From NCBI GenBank assembly GCA_020632215.1, contig JACKFZ010000007.1, positions 1,187 to 65,186 on the forward strand: a DNA stretch of 64,000 nt, in the 5' to 3' direction. This document shows positions 6,425 through 55,515 of this stretch, one piece after another. Numbering within the stretch: the stretch's first letter is position 1; each line of letters opens with the position of its first letter. The notes beneath the pieces were generated by a model, which was not told the origin of the DNA, did not search any database, and saw only the letters and a program-made list of their open reading frames with translations. The translations under genes and the position numbers were made by a program. This DNA comes from Candidatus Nomurabacteria bacterium (GTDB taxonomy: Bacteria > Patescibacteriota > Minisyncoccia > Phycocordibacterales > JAACPR01).

Positions 6425-7080
6425 GGTAGTACCTGATGATTGCTCTTTTATTATTTTAATGAAAGGGAGGAAAGTCCGAACACTTGTCCCGTGGCCCAGC
6501 GAAGCTGGGTTTTACGGGACAGAAGGGTAGCGCCCTAAATTTTCGCAAAACGAAAAAAGGGACCAATCACTTTAGTGATTTTGGTGGTAATACCCGTCGC
6601 CAGTGCTACGCACTGGGAATTCGAAATCAGAATGTCGAAATCCGAAAAAATATTAAGTCTTAAAATCTAAACAAATTGTTTATAATTTAAGATTTAGAAA
6701 TTAAAATTTGTTTCGAATTTCGTTTTTAGAATTTCGTGCTTCCGATGCGTAGTATTGGTAGAGGTGCGAGCAGAGACGCCACAATCGAAAGAAAGTGGCA
6801 CCCTTAACGGGGTGAGTACTATGGAAACATAGGTGCTAAATCACATACAAAAATTTCAATTTTTATATGTGATTGCACGATCAGATTTTTCTTTGAAAAA
6901 TCTGATTTAGTGAAACGGCAAAATCCTTACCTAAGTGCAAGACCGTGCCGCGTAAAGATGGCTTCGCCATCCACCCGGAGAGTCGCTAGAACCAAATAGT
7001 AATATTTGGTCCAGATAAATAATCATCTAGGATAGAGAAGCTCTATCTGATACAGAATTCGGCTTATAGGTACAAGCGAA
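6425..7080 (+). ncRNA. rnpB: RNase P RNA, bacterial type A, with an AT-rich expansion hairpin
   Basis: P4 5' strand 'GGAGGAAAGTCCGAAC' at ~6467. 'GTGCCGCGTAAAGATGGCTTCGCCATCCACCCGGAGAGTCGCTAGAACCAAATAG' matches E. coli 'GUGGCACGGUAAACUCCACCCGGAGCAAGGCCAAAUAGG'. P4 3' strand 'ACAGAATTCGGCTTAT' at ~7051. P1 pairing 'GTACCT'(6429)/'AGGTAC'(7068). GC-rich island in AT-rich DNA. Confidence 0.8.
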
Positions 7081-15455: not shown

Positions 15456-15468
15456 AAAGTCAGGATAG

Positions 15469-15719
15469 CTCCCTAAATGATTGCTACGCAATCATCGGGC
15501 ACAGCAGTTATTAGAGCATTCACAGTTAGTATAAAAGTTGTTATAAATAAATTATGTCAGGATAGCTCAGTTCCCGCCAGAGGCGGACAGGGTCCGAGCA
15601 TTCACAGTTAGTATAAAAGTTGTTATAAATAAATTATGTCAGGATAGCTCAGTTCCCGCCAGAGGCGGACAGGGTCCGAGCATTCACAGTTAGTATAAAA
15701 GTTGTTATAAATAAATTAT
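15469..15719 (+). repeat. three tandem partial pseudo-copies of the tRNA-Phe 5' region (unit 82 bp; one divergent then two identical)
   Basis: 'GTCAGGATAGCTCAGTTCCCGCCAGAGGCGGACAGGGTCCGAGCATTCACAGTTAGTATAAAAGTTGTTATAAATAAATTAT' at 15556 and 15638, plus a diverged copy at 15469; each starts with the first 17 nt of the tRNA. Confidence 0.85.
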
Positions 15720-15795
15720 GTCAGGATAGCTCAGTTGGTAGAGCATTCGCCTGAAGAGCGAAGGGTCGGCGGTTCGAGCCCGCCTCCTGACACCA
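15720..15795 (+). tRNA. tRNA-Phe (anticodon GAA), CCA encoded
   Basis: 'GTCAGGATAGCTCAGTTGGTAGAGCATTCGCCTGAAGAGCGAAGGGTCGGCGGTTCGAGCCCGCCTCCTGACACCA'. Confidence 0.85.
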
Positions 15796-15842
15796 AATTT
15801 ACAATTACCACTAAACAACGCGAAGCGTTGTGAGCTGACACC

Positions 15843-15862
15843 GAGCCCGCCTCCTGACACCA
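15843..15862 (+). repeat. 20-bp direct repeat of the tRNA-Phe 3' end (att-like scar)
   Basis: 'GAGCCCGCCTCCTGACACCA' is identical to tRNA positions 57-76 and lies 47 bp downstream of the gene; the hairpin 'CAACGCGAAGCGTTG' sits between them. Confidence 0.7.
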
Positions 15863-20018: not shown

Positions 20019-20071
20019 ATCGTCAAATACTAGCAGAAATACGGTCTAAAATGAAGGTGGTAAGGGAGTAG

Positions 20072-20113
20072 ATAAAAAATCGCCGGGGCGGGAATGTATG
20101 ATATACATCCCGC
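20072..20113 (-). terminator. Rho-independent terminator on the minus strand at the end of the GC-rich non-coding region
   Basis: Minus strand 'GCGGGATGTATATCATACATTCCCGCCCCGGCGATTTTTT'. Confidence 0.5.
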
Positions 20114-20940
20114 ATGATCCCGGCGCAAGGTTTCAGAGTAGTTGATCCGAAAGTTGTTAAAAACTCGCATTGTGTTTCCAGAACTGGAACAATAGAAGAC
20201 CGTGCCTCTATCTGGTTTCACCCAACAATGAAAGTCACACAGTGCTTAGGCGACCTGTGGTAACGTAACTTTCTTCCCTAGGGACCCCGAAGAGTCCTTT
20301 CACACATCACCCGTCAACCTTAATATTTCAACCACAACATTACAATGAAATTAAATATTAGTCAAATAGAAAAAAAGGCGAAGAGGAGAGAGCCTTTTTG
20401 TGTGATGAGCAAGTCGAATCTCGGCGCTTCTGCCAAAGTTCCGGATTCTGGGCTCCTCTCCTCTTCGTCCCACCAAAATACTACTAAAAGTTAAATATGT
20501 CAAACAAAAAGCAAATAAAAAGAAAGGGCGCGCTCGTAATCCAGTTTGTTGTCAGCTCAGGAATCGGACCACGAGGCGCCATAAAATCTGGAGAAAAGGA
20601 GGGGTAGAGAGCACTTGCAACAGTGGAATCTTTACTACCTCCTCTTCTTTCTTTGATGTTGATAGCGCTCTGGGCCACCGCCGGGGGTAAGATTGGGTGG
20701 ATGAGCCCCATCCTGCTACCCAATCACCACACCGGCGGTGGCCTCTGAGACAACAACACAAGCCAAATCTACATTTGATTCTACATTTAACACAGAGATT
20801 GTCAAATCACAAACAAACAAAAAGAAAAGAAGGGCCGGAGCAACCCAAGGTTGGCGCGATAACAACGGGTTATCGCTTTGGAAACGTCACCAACCCTCCT
20901 GGTTCGGGTTGTCCGGCGTTCTGAGTCTAACTCTTTCTGT

Positions 20941-23145: not shown

Positions 23146-23250
23146 CACGATAAAAAATACATATAGCGAAGCGATATGTATTTTTGTATCGCTTAGATCT
23201 TGCGAATTTTCGTTAAAGCCTGCCCCGTAAATGAGCGGAGCGAATTATAC

Positions 23251-23273
23251 GGGGATTCCCCGTAGGGTCACCA
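23251..23273 (+). repeat. direct repeat of the tRNA-Glu 3' end (att-like), opening the cassette-like array
   Basis: 'GGGGATTCCCCGTAGGGTCACCA' shares 17 identical nt ('ATTCCCCGTAGGGTCAC') with the tRNA 3' terminus, 106 bp downstream of the gene. Confidence 0.7.
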
Positions 23274-23307
23274 TTTAGAGCGCTAGTGTGAGCGCTCGAG
23301 AAACATT

Positions 23308-51527: not shown

Positions 51528-52100
51528 TTACAGATCTTCGTGGATGATGAAGATCTGTCCGAAGGTTGGTTGGTTCGGCCTGCTTAGGACCAATCTGATC
51601 CGGACAATCTCCACATCGTGGAGATACAGCTTTTTGCCCGGTAACCAATTTGTTGGTTCAGAGTCAGTAGACCCATCAGGATGAGTCACTTCAAACTGAA
51701 ACCAATTTTCGTCTTGCGGTCTCTTGAACCGCACTGTCTTCCCTCCGACTTGGATTGGTGGTGACCAGTCGGTGAAGATGTTTTTCTTCTCGATCACGGG
51801 TTGGCTGTCAACTCGTTCGAGCAGGTACCTTTCTTTCGCCCACTCATGGTTTTTGTAGGCGAAATAGACGAATGACCCCACGAGGGAACCAACCGTCAGT
51901 ACCCAAAACATTCTCCAGAGGAACTGGCCGAAGCCTAGAACGAAGGACTTTGTCCCAGGCCAGATATTTACCCTACCTCCGCTTGATGATTGGGAGGGGG
52001 GATCTTCGTCAGGCGTAGTCTTGTTTTTGAGAAAAAACCAAACCGAACCAATTATTAATGCAATCCAAAAGATTGCTATTCCAGAGATCCACCAAATCAT
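51528..52100 (-). CDS. membrane protein, possible NfeD-like partner of the upstream SPFH protein
   Basis: Two N-terminal TM helices and a soluble beta-rich C-domain; 4-bp overlap with the SPFH gene; GC-rich. Confidence 0.3.
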   Translation of the reverse strand: MIWWISGIAIFWIALIIGSVWFFLKNKTTPDEDPPSQSSSGGRVNIWPGTKSFVLGFGQFLWRMFWVLTVGSLVGSFVYFAYKNHEWAKERYLLERVDSQPVIEKKNIFTDWSPPIQVGGKTVRFKRPQDENWFQFEVTHPDGSTDSEPTNWLPGKKLYLHDVEIVRIRLVLSRPNQPTFGQIFIIHEDL

Positions 52101-53332
52101 GACTCACCTCCTTCTTGTTCTTGTGTGTGACTTTGTTCTTTAGTACGGCTTACCATGATGCCGATAGGGGACGAAGATCCCCCTTCGGAGTACACGATGC
52201 CACTTTCATTCTTGCCAATTGCATTGGCTCGACGATCTTGAACAACCTGGTCCATAGCATGCCCCAGATCGCTCAATCCAGCCTCATGTAGTTTCTCTAA
52301 TACGATTTTCCACCCTTTACCTTCTGCATCCGCTCTAGCCAAAAGACCTTCTGCTTCTGCTCTCAGTAATTCTTCTCGTGCATTTGCTTCACCAATTCCT
52401 CTCTCGGTAGCAGCATCACGATCACCTTCAGCTTTTCGGCGTTCAGCATCAGCTTTGAGTTCAGCGATGCGTACTTCTACTTGGGCTGCTTCAAGATCTG
52501 CTTGTTCAGGGATGACTCCATATGCCTTTAGGAATAGGCGATTCAGACGTAATCCGTAAGTACCAGCAACTCGATTTACCCGTTCTTGGATGAAATTGTT
52601 GAAAAACGATGCAGTGAATGTCTCAATTCCTTCTCGAAATTCCACGATACTCCGTGGGACATTGTAATTTGGATATTTTTCTCTCTCTGCTGGTGTAAGA
52701 GTATGAGAAAATAAGTCGTTGACTGTATTATCCAGTACATCCTCAACATTTGCCAGATCCACATGATAGCGTAGTGCAAAAAGTACTGGGTTTATGCATT
52801 CCCATTCACAACGAAATAGGAAATCCAAGCTACCTTCAGATAGTTCCACTGCTGGGACTATTTGGGGACGCATGAATGTCCTGCGAATTGCCCAGATAGT
52901 TTTTCTTCTTGATGTAATTGAACTCCGAATATCCAGAGACGACATTTGTGTCGTGCCCTGACCTTCTGTCTCACTGTTATTGAGCTTAACAGCATCAATT
53001 TCAAATGACAGGACTTTCATTGCTGGACTGATAGATAACCACACCCATCCAAACAATTTGTACAACAAAGTGTGAGGATATTGCGGGTTATCTAATGTTG
53101 GTGCTTGTGTTGCACCATTTGGTGATAAGTTAAATCCTAGATCACCACTACCAGAGGCAATGAAACCTTTCTCGTACCCATCGCTGCGGCCAGCAAGAAC
53201 AAAGTGTTCCGCTGGTGCATTCGTGAAGAATGTGTGTGGTGGATTTTTTGAGAAGTAACTGACAAAAAGGAAGCCAAAGACAACCAATGTTATTAGTGTG
53301 AGAACTATGAGAACTATCAGTATTGTTTCCAT
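52097..53332 (-). CDS. SPFH/band-7 (flotillin/stomatin-like) domain membrane protein
   Basis: N-terminal TM helix and the Ala/Glu-rich coiled coil 'AAQVEVRIAELKADAERRKAEGDRDAATERGIGEANAREELLRAEAEG' characteristic of the SPFH C-terminal region; about 50% GC. Confidence 0.5.
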   Translation of the reverse strand: METILIVLIVLTLITLVVFGFLFVSYFSKNPPHTFFTNAPAEHFVLAGRSDGYEKGFIASGSGDLGFNLSPNGATQAPTLDNPQYPHTLLYKLFGWVWLSISPAMKVLSFEIDAVKLNNSETEGQGTTQMSSLDIRSSITSRRKTIWAIRRTFMRPQIVPAVELSEGSLDFLFRCEWECINPVLFALRYHVDLANVEDVLDNTVNDLFSHTLTPAEREKYPNYNVPRSIVEFREGIETFTASFFNNFIQERVNRVAGTYGLRLNRLFLKAYGVIPEQADLEAAQVEVRIAELKADAERRKAEGDRDAATERGIGEANAREELLRAEAEGLLARADAEGKGWKIVLEKLHEAGLSDLGHAMDQVVQDRRANAIGKNESGIVYSEGGSSSPIGIMVSRTKEQSHTQEQEGGES

Positions 53333-53765: not shown

Positions 53766-53847
53766 GTGCCGAGGAGAGGACTTGAACCTCCATGGGTTAC
53801 CCCGCTTGCTCCTAAGGCAAGTGCGTCTACCAATTTCGCCACCTCGG
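53766..53847 (-). tRNA. tRNA-Leu (anticodon TAG)
   Basis: Reverse complement 'GCCGAGGTGGCGAAATTGGTAGACGCACTTGCCTTAGGAGCAAGCGGGGTAACCCATGGAGGTTCAAGTCCTCTCCTCGGCA'; long variable arm. Confidence 0.8.
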
Positions 53848-53918
53848 CATGTGTATAAGTGGATATACTAAACAATTTATTAAAAAATTGCTACTTATGA
53901 AATATTACATATTCCATG

Positions 53919-53992
53919 TCCGCCCAGTAGGACTTGAACCTACGACCGTTCGCTTAAGAGGCGACTGCTCTACCGGCTGAGCTATGGGCGGA
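53919..53992 (-). tRNA. tRNA-Lys (anticodon CTT)
   Basis: Reverse complement 'CCGCCCATAGCTCAGCCGGTAGAGCAGTCGCCTCTTAAGCGAACGGTCGTAGGTTCAAGTCCTACTGGGCGGA'; one non-WC pair at the top of the anticodon stem. Confidence 0.7.
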
Positions 53993-54036: not shown

Positions 54037-54235
54037 TTAAAAAAATGACATGAACAAGAATAGTATCAATAAAATCAGTAGAATAAAAATAAATGTAATA
54101 ATGGAAAATCTAATAATTTTTTCTAGATCTTCTTTATTATTGGGCACATCACCTAATGATAGGGCAGAAATCACTAATGCTGTTAAGTAAGCAAGAAGTT
54201 TCTGAGTAGGATATTTTGTCACGTTCTTTTTCATT
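54037..54235 (-). CDS. possible small two-TM membrane protein
   Basis: 66 aa from 'MKKNVTKYPTQKLLAYLTALVISALSLG'; the longer track ORF extends into the repeat array and is probably artefactual. Confidence 0.25.
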
Positions 54236-54241
54236 ATAGTT

Positions 54242-54526
54242 TGTGCCCGGGGCGGGAATCGAACCCGCATCCCAGAGGGACACGCAAATATTTTATAGCA
54301 AGTCGTGCGTGTATACATGCAACCATACTATTGCTATGTGCCCGGGGCGGGAATCGAACCCGCATCCCAGAGGGACACGCAAATATTTTATAGCAAGTCG
54401 TGCGTGTATACATGCAACCATACTATTGCTATGTGCCCGGGGCGGGAATCGAACCCGCATCCCAGAGGGACACGCAAATATTTTATAGCAAGTCGTGCGT
54501 GTATACATGCAACCATACTATTGCTA
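54242..54526 (-). repeat. three tandem 95-bp pseudo-tRNA-Leu(TAA) copies
   Basis: Each unit shares the 3' 43 nt of the tRNA ('TGCCCGGGGCGGGAATCGAACCCGCATCCCAGAGGGACACG' on plus), has an anticodon loop expanded by 11 nt ('CTTGCTATAAAATATTTG') and an unrelated 5' part; period exactly 95 bp. Confidence 0.85.
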
Positions 54527-54528
54527 TG

Positions 54529-54609
54529 TGCCCGGGGCGGGAATCGAACCCGCATCCCAGAGGGACACGATTTTAAGTCGTGCGTGTATACCAATTCCAC
54601 CACCCGGGC
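54529..54609 (-). tRNA. tRNA-Leu (anticodon TAA)
   Basis: Reverse complement 'GCCCGGGTGGTGGAATTGGTATACACGCACGACTTAAAATCGTGTCCCTCTGGGATGCGGGTTCGATTCCCGCCCCGGGCA'. Confidence 0.8.
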
Positions 54610-54710
54610 AATTGTGTTATAAAATAGATTTATAACACAATATCCAATTAGTAGAAAGCGGTCTGTAGCTATTTCTATTAACTACCGACTGATGACTACT
54701 GACTAGATTG

Positions 54711-54784
54711 AGGTCTAGGCCGGGTTCGAACCGGCGCATAACGGTTTTGCAGACCGTCGCGTTAACCAACTTCGCCACTAGACC
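54711..54784 (-). tRNA. tRNA-Cys (anticodon GCA), U73 discriminator
   Basis: Reverse complement 'GGTCTAGTGGCGAAGTTGGTTAACGCGACGGTCTGCAAAACCGTTATGCGCCGGTTCGAACCCGGCCTAGACCT'. Confidence 0.8.
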
Positions 54785-54790
54785 ACGATT

Positions 54791-55300
54791 TTAAATAATT
54801 CGTTTTACTTTATCTGTGATTTTTTCTGGTTTAAGTTTAAAGTAATTATCAAAATGGTCAAATTTTCTTTTGAGAAAGAAACCATCTCTTTTATCTTTAT
54901 AAAGCCAACAGAATAATTTAATTGATTGGGAACTATCATAATATAGCCTATAAGCTCTTGAATATTTCTTGATGTTTGCTTTTATACCAGCATTTTCTTC
55001 CAATTTTGCTCTCAATATCTTTAAGAATTCGTATCTTCCGCAAGTGAATATAATTCTTAATCTTTTTATCTTATCTTCTAGTTTTTCTATATAAACACAC
55101 CCATTCCCATCAAAGTACCCTAAAACAAAACTATTTAGATATTTTTTAGGAATATCTGGGAATAACATTGTTGTGGATTTGTTCGGATATAAACCAATTT
55201 GTTGTAACGAATTATATATATCTTTGTCTCCAATTCTCAATAAATAAAGTTTCTTGTGATTATTATATTGTGATGAAGAGATTTTATGCTCTGAACTCAA
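54791..55300 (-). CDS. free-standing LAGLIDADG-family homing endonuclease-like protein
   Basis: 'NSFVLGYFDGNGCVYIEK' LAGLIDADG-type motif; 169 aa (single-motif size); 6 bp from tRNA-Cys. Confidence 0.55.
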   Translation of the reverse strand: MSSEHKISSSQYNNHKKLYLLRIGDKDIYNSLQQIGLYPNKSTTMLFPDIPKKYLNSFVLGYFDGNGCVYIEKLEDKIKRLRIIFTCGRYEFLKILRAKLEENAGIKANIKKYSRAYRLYYDSSQSIKLFCWLYKDKRDGFFLKRKFDHFDNYFKLKPEKITDKVKRII

Positions 55301-55515
55301 GAATAGTCTGATGATTTCTATTCGATCATAATCGGTACTTGTTACTCTTAAATATTAGCTCTGATATAAGAAGAATCTTCTAAACTTCCGTCTGCATAGA
55401 GATATCCTAAGACATAAGCCATCTCATAACTCCATTTTTTAAACGAGTCTTTATTGATCTTATACTTTATCCCCACACTAATATTCTAAGTGGTCTAATA
55501 TTATGCTGCAAATCG

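What the first reader, a model, noticed from the sequence alone, without database searches (positions are those of the whole stretch)
54242..54609. Three tandem 95-bp pseudo-tRNA-Leu(TAA) copies with an expanded anticodon loop next to the intact gene
Each repeat reproduces the 3' 43 nt of tRNA-Leu(TAA) exactly. The anticodon loop is enlarged from 7 to 18 nt ('CTTGCTATAAAATATTTG') and the 5' half is replaced by unrelated sequence, so the copies cannot fold into tRNAs. Together with the tRNA-Phe locus, this is the second pseudo-tRNA tandem array in 64 kb, which is unusual for a streamlined genome. The repeats might be transcribed with the tRNA and yield tRNA-derived fragments.
Basis: seen in the sequence. 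Interest (0 to 1): 0.55.

Follow-up and report, generated by a model that had tools for sequence, protein, structure and literature searches.

The report
Tandem pseudo-tRNA-Leu repeats carrying promoter boxes
Right after a leucine tRNA gene of a tiny uncultured (Patescibacteria) bacterium sit three identical 95-base copies of the gene's back end, each joined to a short promoter-like box; the same module occurs in a distant relative, so it is a real, inherited, copy-number-variable repeat and not an assembly error, though probably not a new kind of biology.

Summary
Window 54242-54526 holds 3 perfect 95-nt units directly 3' of tRNA-Leu(UAA) (54528-54609, minus strand). A homologous 87-nt unit lies at the same place in another Paceibacteria lineage (IF-2 58% identical; four assemblies; 1-2 copies plus a decayed one). 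It has the same breakpoints and nearly the same 15-nt 'expanded loop'. An independent read-set unitig of a 99.45%-identical strain stops exactly at the predicted repeat branch. So the unit itself is not an artefact, though the copy number is unverified. The 'expanded anticodon loop' contains TGCTATAAA, an extended -10 promoter motif. The same motif precedes real tRNA genes here and keeps a conserved 7-nt distance to the 43-nt block. My best reading is a minisatellite made by duplicating [tRNA-Leu 3' part + promoter-bearing spacer]. Recombination with the gene keeps it identical and multiplies an internal operon promoter. The tRNA-Phe array fits the same scheme. The closest known case is the E. 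coli tyrT 178-bp repeats. Partial tRNA copies flank 14 of 42 tRNA genes in relatives, so this is not unusual for the clade. Interest is moderate.

The parts
54528..54609 (-). Intact tRNA-Leu(UAA) gene. Its last 43 nt, counted with 54527, are the proximal copy of the repeated block.
   Evidence: ARAGORN; Rfam tRNA 62.5 bits. 100% identical over 83-84 nt to the tRNA of relatives L006 and L007.
54432..54526 (-). Pseudo-unit 1. It comprises the spacer J (54526-54507), tRNA 19-35 (54506-54490), a 15-nt box region (54489-54475), and the 43-nt block of tRNA 40-73 plus CA (54474-54432).
54337..54431 (-). Pseudo-unit 2, identical to unit 1.
54242..54336 (-). Pseudo-unit 3, identical to units 1 and 2. 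It is followed by GGGCACAA..., the trailer type seen after the tRNA in relatives.
   Evidence: compared.
54482..54490 (-). Extended -10-like box TGCTATAAA in unit 1. Identical boxes lie at 54387-54395 and 54292-54300. Each hexamer is followed by 7 nt and then the 43-nt block.
   Evidence: Motif search: 15 hits against 5.6 +/- 2.5 expected. The spacing is conserved in the L015 unit.
54611..54641 (.). Perfect 13-bp palindrome just upstream of tRNA-Leu(UAA). It carries TGTTATAAA on both strands and is the likely promoter or processing hairpin of the real gene.
   Evidence: (I2).
54037..54234 (-). 65-codon ORF with two hydrophobic segments, lying between the array and tRNA-Lys. It would be the first thing transcribed from the last unit's box. 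Its coding status is unknown.
   Evidence: No Pfam or PHROG hit. Not on record as a called gene.
53766..53991 (-). tRNA-Lys(CUU) and tRNA-Leu(UAG), the downstream members of the conserved Cys-Leu(UAA)-Lys-Leu(UAG) cluster.
   Evidence: Same order in L007, L011, L014-17 and L018.
15459..15795 (+). Second array of the same kind. It has one older and two identical copies of [tRNA-Phe 5' 13-17 nt + hairpin insert + positions 22-29 + 34-nt upstream spacer with TGTTATAAA], followed by the intact tRNA-Phe (15720-15795).

Best explanation
The array is a genuine tRNA-linked minisatellite inside the rbfA-Cys-Leu(UAA)-Lys-Leu(UAG) tRNA operon of a Candidatus Nomurabacteria (Patescibacteria) genome. Its unit arose by duplicating a segment that runs from tRNA-Leu(UAA) position 40 to the 3' end and on through the intergenic spacer. 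That spacer carries an extended -10 promoter box (TGCTATAAA). The so-called expanded anticodon loop is therefore the junction 'promoter box | tRNA position 40'. The tRNA-derived parts of the unit (43 nt and 17 nt) are kept identical to the neighbouring functional gene by gene conversion. Copy number moves up and down by unequal recombination or replication slippage between the 43-nt repeats. Its most likely effect is to multiply an internal promoter that reads into the downstream part of the operon (small ORF, tRNA-Lys, tRNA-Leu(UAG)), with the 43-nt tRNA fragment as a passenger leader. Shown here: the anatomy, homology with a second lineage, concerted evolution with the tRNA, and motif identity with real tRNA upstream regions. 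Inferred: promoter activity, the recombination mechanism, and any selective benefit.
For: (1) The anatomy and perfect periodicity are clear.
(2) A homologous unit occurs in another lineage (L014-L017; IF-2 58% identical, and not the sister lineage). It has the same breakpoints (tRNA 41-82 exact), the same 17-nt block with 1 change, and box GCTATTAAAATATTG against GCTATAAAATATTTG here. It has an 87-nt period. One copy is present in three assemblies, and two copies in L015.
(3) In that lineage the array ends in a diverged copy of the spacer. This copy keeps only the TGCTATAGA box and leads into tRNA-Lys 35 nt later, as expected if the box is the spacer's promoter.
(4) One T-loop difference separates the lineages (GATTCC here, GACTCC in L014-17). 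Each lineage's units match their own tRNA, which indicates gene conversion.
(5) TGNTATAAA is enriched in the window (15 hits against 5.6 +/- 2.5 expected; 0 of 100 shuffles reach 15). Eight of the 15 hits are tRNA-linked. It lies 8 nt before tRNA-Phe and before each Phe pseudo-unit, and 19 nt before tRNA-Leu(UAA). TGTTATGAA lies 7 nt before tRNA-Lys. A looser form is found in 18 of 46 tRNA upstream regions against 8.5% background.
(6) The distance from hexamer to block is 7 nt in both lineages, despite two compensating indels.
(7) The Phe array and a decayed tRNA-Lys 5' array in L018 (period 74, 73% identity) are also tandem copies of a promoter-bearing spacer plus a clipped tRNA edge.
(8) A Logan unitig from a 99.45%-identical strain ends at 54540. 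This is exactly where a k=31 graph of the window must branch because of the repeated block.
(9) Relatives L007 and L011 show the compact ancestral cluster without units.
Against: There are no transcription data. The sigma-70 two-hexamer scan called no promoter in the units, and no -35 element is conserved, so the reading rests on the extended -10 class alone. AT-rich -10-like strings are easy to find in a 34% GC genome. tRNA-Lys has its own closer box, so an extra promoter may be redundant. The simple duplication model does not explain why the spacer contains 17 nt identical to tRNA 19-35. It also does not explain why, in the window, the last unit is followed by a 43-nt block rather than by a recognisable spacer copy (no significant similarity). 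The distribution is patchy: present in 2 lineages, absent in 6. That needs several losses or horizontal spread. The copy number of 3 may be an assembler's guess.
Confidence: 0.5

Rival explanations
1. The array is a neutral minisatellite with no function. A partial duplication of tRNA-Leu(UAA) is repeatedly homogenised and resized by recombination. The promoter-like box is incidental AT-rich sequence, helped by the fact that the anticodon-loop DNA TAAAAT is already -10-like.
For: Units are 100% identical, which is typical of recent unequal crossing-over. Folding of a unit is not more stable than shuffles (z = -1.42). The outermost copy in L014-17 has decayed. Six related lineages do without it. 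Partial tRNA copies are common in the clade (14 of 42).
Against: The non-tRNA box is conserved, and its spacing is preserved by compensating indels, between lineages whose IF-2 is only 58% identical. Meanwhile the adjacent spacer J has diverged beyond alignment apart from AGCAA. Direct repeats of 43 nt should be lost easily, yet at least one unit persists in both lineages.
Confidence: 0.25
2. The units are attachment-site scars. An integrative element with a tRNA-Leu-like attP recombined in or near the anticodon stem-loop. The units are attL/attR remnants left after the element's interior was lost, later amplified.
For: A roughly 40-nt identity block running from the anticodon arm to the 3' end is the classical footprint of tRNA-targeting integrases; Hackl et al. 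(10.1101/2020.12.28.424599) describe att sites of about 40 nt as partial tRNAs in streamlined Prochlorococcus. The outermost unit keeps the ancestral trailer. The same unit in non-sister lineages would fit a shared mobile element.
Against: No integrase, recombinase or transposase was found among 50 window ORFs scanned with Pfam. None lies next to the units in L014-17. No element body is present in any of 5 assemblies, and both lineages would need the same interior deletion. There were no viral-contig matches to the tRNA 3' end, the unit junction or the box. The Phe array duplicates the 5' end, which integrases rarely use.
Confidence: 0.1
3. The units are functional small RNAs or processing modules. 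Each unit would give a 3'-tRNA-half-like RNA or an RNase entry site that modulates maturation of the operon, by analogy with rtT RNA of the E. coli tyrT operon.
For: E. coli K-12 has 3.1 tandem 178-bp units after tyrV. Each carries the last 19 nt of tRNA-Tyr and is annotated as small RNA RttR; 10.1101/2024.07.17.603846 states that rtT RNA is involved in tyrT transcript processing. The predicted start of transcription coincides with the first base of the 43-nt block. AGCAA at the start of the spacer can pair with TTGCT in the box in both lineages.
Against: No acceptor 5' strand is present, so RNase P, CCA-adding enzyme and LeuRS have no normal substrate. There is no significant structure. No Rfam family matches, including RtT; only a sub-threshold YrlA hit driven by the T-arm (21.9 bits against a 69-bit cutoff). 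Only two lineages are available, so covariation cannot be tested.
Confidence: 0.1
4. The array is an assembly artefact: the assembler went round a de Bruijn loop too many times, or created the repeat.
For: Perfect identity, a period (95) below common final k values, and a total length (285 nt) beyond a short read all mean the number of copies cannot be fixed by graph structure alone. The copy number also differs between assemblers in the relative (1 in the k141 contigs, 1-2 in scaffolds).
Against: The unit-specific junctions must exist in reads. An independent sample's unitig breaks exactly at the predicted branch. A homologous unit occurs in four other assemblies. Assemblers usually collapse tandem repeats rather than expand them.
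Confidence: 0.05

Closest known systems
E. coli tyrT-tyrV operon 178-bp repeats (rttR / rtT RNA, tpr)
   Same: It is a tandem array directly 3' of a tRNA gene, on the same strand, with about 3 copies. Each unit contains an exact copy of the tRNA's 3' end. I checked this in K-12 MG1655: period 178, 3.1 copies, 95% matches, and a 19-nt tRNA-Tyr 3' end in each unit plus one in the tyrT-tyrV spacer.
   Different: The unit here is 95 nt, not 178. The tRNA-derived part here is 60 nt (43 + 17), not 19. Identity here is 100%, not 95%. There is no sequence or Rfam similarity. The unit here carries a promoter-like box and lies between tRNA genes of one operon, not at the operon's end.
Partial tRNA genes left as attL/attR by tRNA-targeting tyrosine integrases (for example tycheposons of Prochlorococcus)
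   Same: A direct repeat of about 40 nt made of the 3' part of a tRNA gene lies next to the intact gene in a streamlined genome (10.1101/2020.12.28.424599).
   Different: No integrase or cargo lies between or beside the repeats. The spacing is only 52 nt. The arrangement is tandem and perfectly periodic.
Tandem promoters of stable-RNA operons (for example rrn P1/P2 in E. coli; from my own knowledge, not tested here)
   Same: Several promoters in series, about 100 nt apart, read into the same stable-RNA genes.
   Different: Here the promoters would be identical copies made by a recent duplication. They are embedded in tRNA-derived sequence, and their activity is unproven.
Pseudo-tRNA tandem duplications of organelle genomes (tandem-duplication/random-loss; from my own knowledge)
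   Same: Slippage or unequal recombination at tRNA genes produces arrays of truncated tRNA copies.
   Different: This is a bacterial chromosome. The unit is conserved across lineages and kept identical to the live gene.
Split tRNA 3'-half genes of Nanoarchaeum equitans (from my own knowledge)
   Same: A tRNA 3' portion is preceded by its own promoter-like element.
   Different: This is a bacterium. An intact tRNA-Leu(UAA) lies alongside. No matching 5' half or complementary leader was found in the window. The break is at position 39/40, not 37/38.

Membership tests
Functional tRNA gene | Cloverleaf with an acceptor stem, accepted by tRNA models | tested here: not met
   ARAGORN and Rfam tRNA call only 54528-54609. 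The units get no tRNA hit even at E <= 10. Positions 1-18 are absent.
RtT RNA / tyrT-type tRNA-linked repeat | Tandem units 3' of a tRNA gene, each containing the tRNA's 3' end | tested here: met
   for the window; for the E. coli reference.
RtT RNA / tyrT-type tRNA-linked repeat | Sequence or structure similarity to the Rfam RtT family | tested here: not met
   No RtT match at the gathering threshold or at E <= 10.
RtT RNA / tyrT-type tRNA-linked repeat | A discrete RNA released from the operon transcript | not testable with these tools
   Needs RNA data.
Integrase att-site scar | Direct repeat equal to the 3' segment of the target tRNA | tested here: met
   43-nt exact block.
Integrase att-site scar | Integrase or mobile-element genes between or adjacent to the repeats | tested here: not met
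   50 window ORFs scanned with Pfam showed no recombinase. None is called near the units in L014-17.
Integrase att-site scar | A matching attP on a virus or plasmid | tested here: not met
   0 hits in viral contigs for the 3' end, the unit junction and the box pattern. Only tRNA-level similarity was found in phage records.
Extended -10 (TGn) sigma-70 promoter | TGnTATAAT-like sequence on the transcribed strand, upstream of a transcribed unit | tested here: met
   TGCTATAAA in each unit. The same motif lies 7-19 nt upstream of real tRNA genes and is enriched.
Extended -10 (TGn) sigma-70 promoter | Transcription initiates 6-8 nt downstream | not testable with these tools
   Needs 5'-end mapping.
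Minisatellite / VNTR | Copy number varies among related genomes | tested here: inconclusive
   Counts are 3 copies here, 1 in L014, L016 and L017, and 2 in L015. The assemblers differ, and repeats of this size can be collapsed.

The most novel reading that the evidence does not exclude
Each unit may be an independently transcribed mini-gene. An extended -10 promoter built on the anticodon-loop DNA would fire exactly at tRNA position 40 and make a 3'-tRNA-Leu-half RNA. Selection would have kept this module in divergent Paceibacteria. It would then belong to a wider, undescribed set of tRNA-matched elements in Patescibacteria. That set includes the structured ~170-nt trailer elements that end in a copy of their own tRNA's 3' end, seen in L008, L009, L014-17 and L021 and, in reduced form, at the window's tRNA-Glu. 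These elements might regulate tRNA maturation or act as decoys.
Probability: 0.12. Interest if true: 0.75.

Novelty: new variant of a known kind. Interest (0 to 1): 0.42.

Why it matters
If the promoter reading holds, it shows how a genome with single-copy tRNA genes can tune tRNA output: it duplicates promoter-bearing spacers together with clipped tRNA edges. It would also explain why such pseudo-tRNA arrays recur (Leu and Phe here, Lys in a relative). In practice, these arrays break short-read assemblies at tRNA genes and can be mistaken for att sites or pseudogenes, so knowing their anatomy helps the annotation of CPR genomes. The comparison also showed that tRNA flanks in Paceibacteria are a hot zone of partial tRNA copies and of a conserved structured trailer element that no Rfam family covers. 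That element may be the more interesting lead.

Tried and rejected
- **Group I intron remnant in tRNA-Leu(UAA).** Divergence starts after U34, the cyanobacterial intron site. I rejected this because the 3' boundary does not restore AAAAUCG, no intron model matches, and the insert is only 15 nt.
- **Link to the neighbouring LAGLIDADG ORF (54791-55300).** It is a real endonuclease homologue (Pfam 1.8e-06; PHROG 5.7e-25) and is absent from relatives. Nothing ties it to the array.
- **Split-tRNA 5' half.** There is no second copy of positions 1-18 in the window.
- **Coding potential.** ORFs of 50-105 codons run through the array on both strands. The period of 95 is not a multiple of 3, and the relative's 87-nt unit has no shared start. 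A protein search with the 105-aa ORF found only an antisense-tRNA ORF.
- **Y RNA-like (YrlA).** The hit is sub-threshold and driven by the T-arm.
- **Templated origin of the spacer or box from elsewhere in the window.** Only chance-level hits were found.
- **A decayed fourth unit downstream in the window.** Not significant: 472 of 500 shuffles scored as well.
- **Collection scans.** The metagenome scans found nothing, twice. The genome scan found 4 single-copy tRNA loci and no array. Exact-protein look-ups for ORFs spanning the array and for the small ORF found nothing.

Full report
**What is there**

The window is AT-rich (about 34% GC). Its IF-2 is identical to a protein that NCBI names from a Candidatus Nomurabacteria bacterium. 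The neighbouring genes (ClpB, cysteine desulfurase, DUF4446, IF-2, RbfA, T4SS-type pilins, GyrA) are syntenic with Paceibacteria contigs.

On the minus strand the order is:
- rbfA (55842-55516)
- a LAGLIDADG-type ORF (55300-54791)
- tRNA-Cys
- tRNA-Leu(UAA) (54609-54528)
- three 95-nt units (54526-54242)
- a 65-codon ORF (54234-54037)
- tRNA-Lys
- tRNA-Leu(UAG)

TRF reports period 95, 3.5 copies and 100% identity. The extra half copy is the 3' end of the real gene.

**Anatomy of a unit (minus strand)**

- 20-nt spacer: TAGCAATAGTATGGTTGCAT
- 17 nt identical to tRNA positions 19-35: GTATACACGCACGACTT
- 15 nt, GCTATAAAATATTTG, in place of AAAAT
- 43 nt identical to tRNA 40-73 plus CA

No tRNA model accepts the units. 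A unit does not fold better than shuffled sequence (z = -1.42).

**Is it real?**

- Two Logan contigs from other sequencing runs cover IF-2 to tRNA-Leu. One is 100% identical to the window and the other 99.45%.
- The 99.45% one ends at window position 54540. A k=31 de Bruijn graph built from the window alone must break at exactly that base, because the block CGTGTCCC... has two different predecessors. So a second copy of the block with a different upstream base exists in an independent sample.
- Stronger evidence comes from four ENA assemblies of another Paceibacteria species (L014-L017; IF-2 58% identical to the window's). These carry the following directly after their tRNA-Leu(UAA): AGCAAGAAATAAGT GTACACGCACGACTT GCTATTAAAATATTG CGTGTCCC...GGGCACA.
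- That unit is 87 nt. It occurs once in three assemblies and twice in one.
- Its breakpoints are the same as in the window, and the 15-nt segment differs only by two compensating indels.
- The unit is therefore not an artefact and not private to this genome. The exact copy number in the window remains unverified.

**Evolutionary behaviour**

- An IF-2 distance tree puts the window with L010 and L011, and puts L014 nearer L007 and L018. L011, L007, L018, L021, L008 and L009 lack the unit. The distribution is therefore patchy.
- The two lineages differ at one T-loop base (GATTCC against GACTCC). In each lineage the units carry that lineage's own tRNA variant. This indicates gene conversion or repeated re-duplication from the live gene.
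- Outside the tRNA-derived parts, the 15-nt segment and AGCAA are conserved, while the rest of the spacer is not alignable.
- In L014-17 the array ends in a 76-nt stretch before tRNA-Lys. Its first 41 nt are a diverged copy of spacer + 17-mer + box (GCAGGAAACAAGT GCGCATGCACAACTT GCTATAGATAATG), followed by a 35-nt leader.
- That layout is what a tandem duplication of [tRNA 40-3' end + spacer] predicts. It identifies the 15-nt segment as part of the Leu-Lys spacer, not as an insertion into an anticodon loop.

**What the conserved segment looks like**

- TTGCTATAAAAT contains TGCTATAAA, the extended -10 promoter form (TGnTATAAT; established sigma-70 knowledge).
- In the window TGNTATAAA occurs 15 times against 5.6 +/- 2.5 expected, and 0 of 100 shuffles reach 15. 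Eight of these sites are tRNA-linked: three in the Leu units, three lying 8 nt before tRNA-Phe or its pseudo-copies, and two in the palindrome 19 nt before tRNA-Leu(UAA).
- tRNA-Lys has TGTTATGAA 7 nt upstream, tRNA-Glu has TGATATATT, and tRNA-Arg has TGTTAGATT.
- A loose form of the motif is present in 18 of 46 non-redundant tRNA upstream 40-mers, against 8.5% of random 40-mers.
- In both lineages the hexamer is followed by 7 nt and then the first base of the 43-nt block.
- A start of transcription would therefore fall at the block's first base. This last step is inference; no RNA data are available.
- The classical -35/-10 scan does not call these sites.

**The same scheme elsewhere**

- The tRNA-Phe array (15459-15719) consists of copies of the 34-nt upstream spacer with its TGTTATAAA box plus the first 13-17 nt and positions 22-29 of the tRNA. 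These are interrupted by hairpin-forming inserts.
- In L018 a decayed array (period 74, 3.4 copies, 73% identity) of [tRNA-Lys 5' fragment + AT-rich upstream region with TATAAT] precedes tRNA-Lys.
- Across 8 lineages, 14 of 42 tRNA genes have a partial copy of at least 15 nt within 1.5 kb. Pseudo-tRNA fragments are therefore ordinary in this clade.

**Rival origins**

- *Integrase att scars.* They would explain a ~43-nt 3' block and the ancestral-type trailer after the last unit. However, none of 50 window ORFs is a recombinase, no element body exists in any assembly, and viral contigs have no match.
- *A functional RNA in the manner of rtT.* This cannot be excluded, but it has no structural support.
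- *A group I intron remnant, a split-tRNA half, and a coding reading.* I examined and rejected these.

**Comparison with known systems**

The nearest precedent is the E. coli tyrT operon. In K-12 I confirmed 3.1 tandem 178-bp units after tyrV. Each carries the last 19 nt of tRNA-Tyr, and they are annotated rttR and tpr. A preprint states that rtT RNA is involved in tyrT transcript processing (10.1101/2024.07.17.603846). The window's array is the same kind of object: a tRNA-linked tandem repeat with tRNA 3' ends. It is not a member of that RNA family. It differs in carrying a larger tRNA part, a promoter-like box, cross-lineage conservation, and a position inside the operon.

**Verdict**

The array is real, more than chance, and explained in outline as a recombination-maintained minisatellite derived from the tRNA gene and its promoter-bearing spacer. 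Promoter multiplication is the most likely effect, at about even odds for the whole statement. It is a new variant of a known kind and of moderate interest.

Noticed in passing
L008 2625-2809 and 3803-3964; L009 1439-1654 (minus strand) and 6714-6901; L014 10119-10546, 10916-11430, 11552-11744 and 1632-1809 (minus strand); L021 13857-14034 (minus strand): A conserved structured element of about 150-200 nt follows many tRNA genes in related Patescibacteria. It always ends in an exact 15-21 nt copy of that tRNA's own 3' end. Inside it, segments complementary to that tRNA's acceptor 3' strand and T-arm flank a conserved hairpin and pair with the terminal copy; 23 of 50 predicted pairs show compensatory changes in 4 copies. 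G-U pairs place it on the tRNA-sense strand. It is tandemly duplicated in some assemblies (Cys period 214 x2, Lys x3). Copies within a genome resemble each other more than copies at the same tRNA in different genomes. It has no Rfam match. Its nature is unknown.
   Followed up: partly
window 23147-23274: tRNA-Glu is followed by a terminator-like hairpin, then a second hairpin whose loop carries TGAGCGGAGCGAA, and then an exact 18-nt copy of the tRNA's 3' end. The copy ends in CCA, whereas the gene itself does not encode CCA. The loop motif is the signature of the trailer-element family, and this is its only exact occurrence in the window. This looks like a reduced member of the trailer-element family.
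   Followed up: partly
window 15796-15862: tRNA-Phe has an exact 21-nt copy of its 3' end (including CCA) 46 nt downstream. A GCGAAGC-type mini-hairpin lies between them. This is in addition to the 5' pseudo-copies upstream.
   Followed up: partly
window 54710-55515: A 169-codon single-domain LAGLIDADG endonuclease ORF (Pfam 1.8e-06; PHROG endonuclease 5.7e-25, matching only the C-terminal half of a 308-position profile) sits between rbfA and tRNA-Cys. In relatives, tRNA-Cys follows rbfA within a few bases. The window's tRNA-Cys also has a different acceptor stem (GGTCTAG) from its nearest relatives (GGCGTGG) and resembles that of the distant L008. This suggests a horizontally replaced segment.
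   Followed up: partly
window 20019-20940: A 920-nt stretch between leuS and tsaD has no convincing ORF and about 45% GC in a 34% GC genome. No Rfam match was found even at E <= 1. It may be an undescribed structured RNA or a decayed gene.
   Followed up: partly
L018 3047-3130 and 3566-3626; L014 1632-1650 and 1961-1976: tRNA-Tyr in relatives also carries partial copies. In L018 and L019 there is a 61-nt copy (positions 24-84) about 436 nt downstream. In L014 and L015 there is both a 19-nt 3' copy downstream and a 16-nt 5' copy upstream.
   Followed up: no
L008 3950-3985: After the trailer element of tRNA-Trp, the acceptor 3' strand is itself tandemly duplicated (CTAGACCCGCAA x2). This is another small-scale duplication of a tRNA 3' end.
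   Followed up: no
L022 9612-15837: One ENA contig carries two divergent IF-2/rbfA/DUF4446/ClpB sets in inverted orientation, meeting at the tRNA cluster. It is probably a chimeric join of two related genomes at conserved tRNA genes.
   Followed up: no
window 51528-53332: Two genes (411 and 190 codons) next to tRNA-Leu(UAG) have 42-44% GC against about 34% elsewhere. They have no Pfam or PHROG hit. Relatives have a Band_7 protein plus a 157-codon partner at this position.
   Followed up: no
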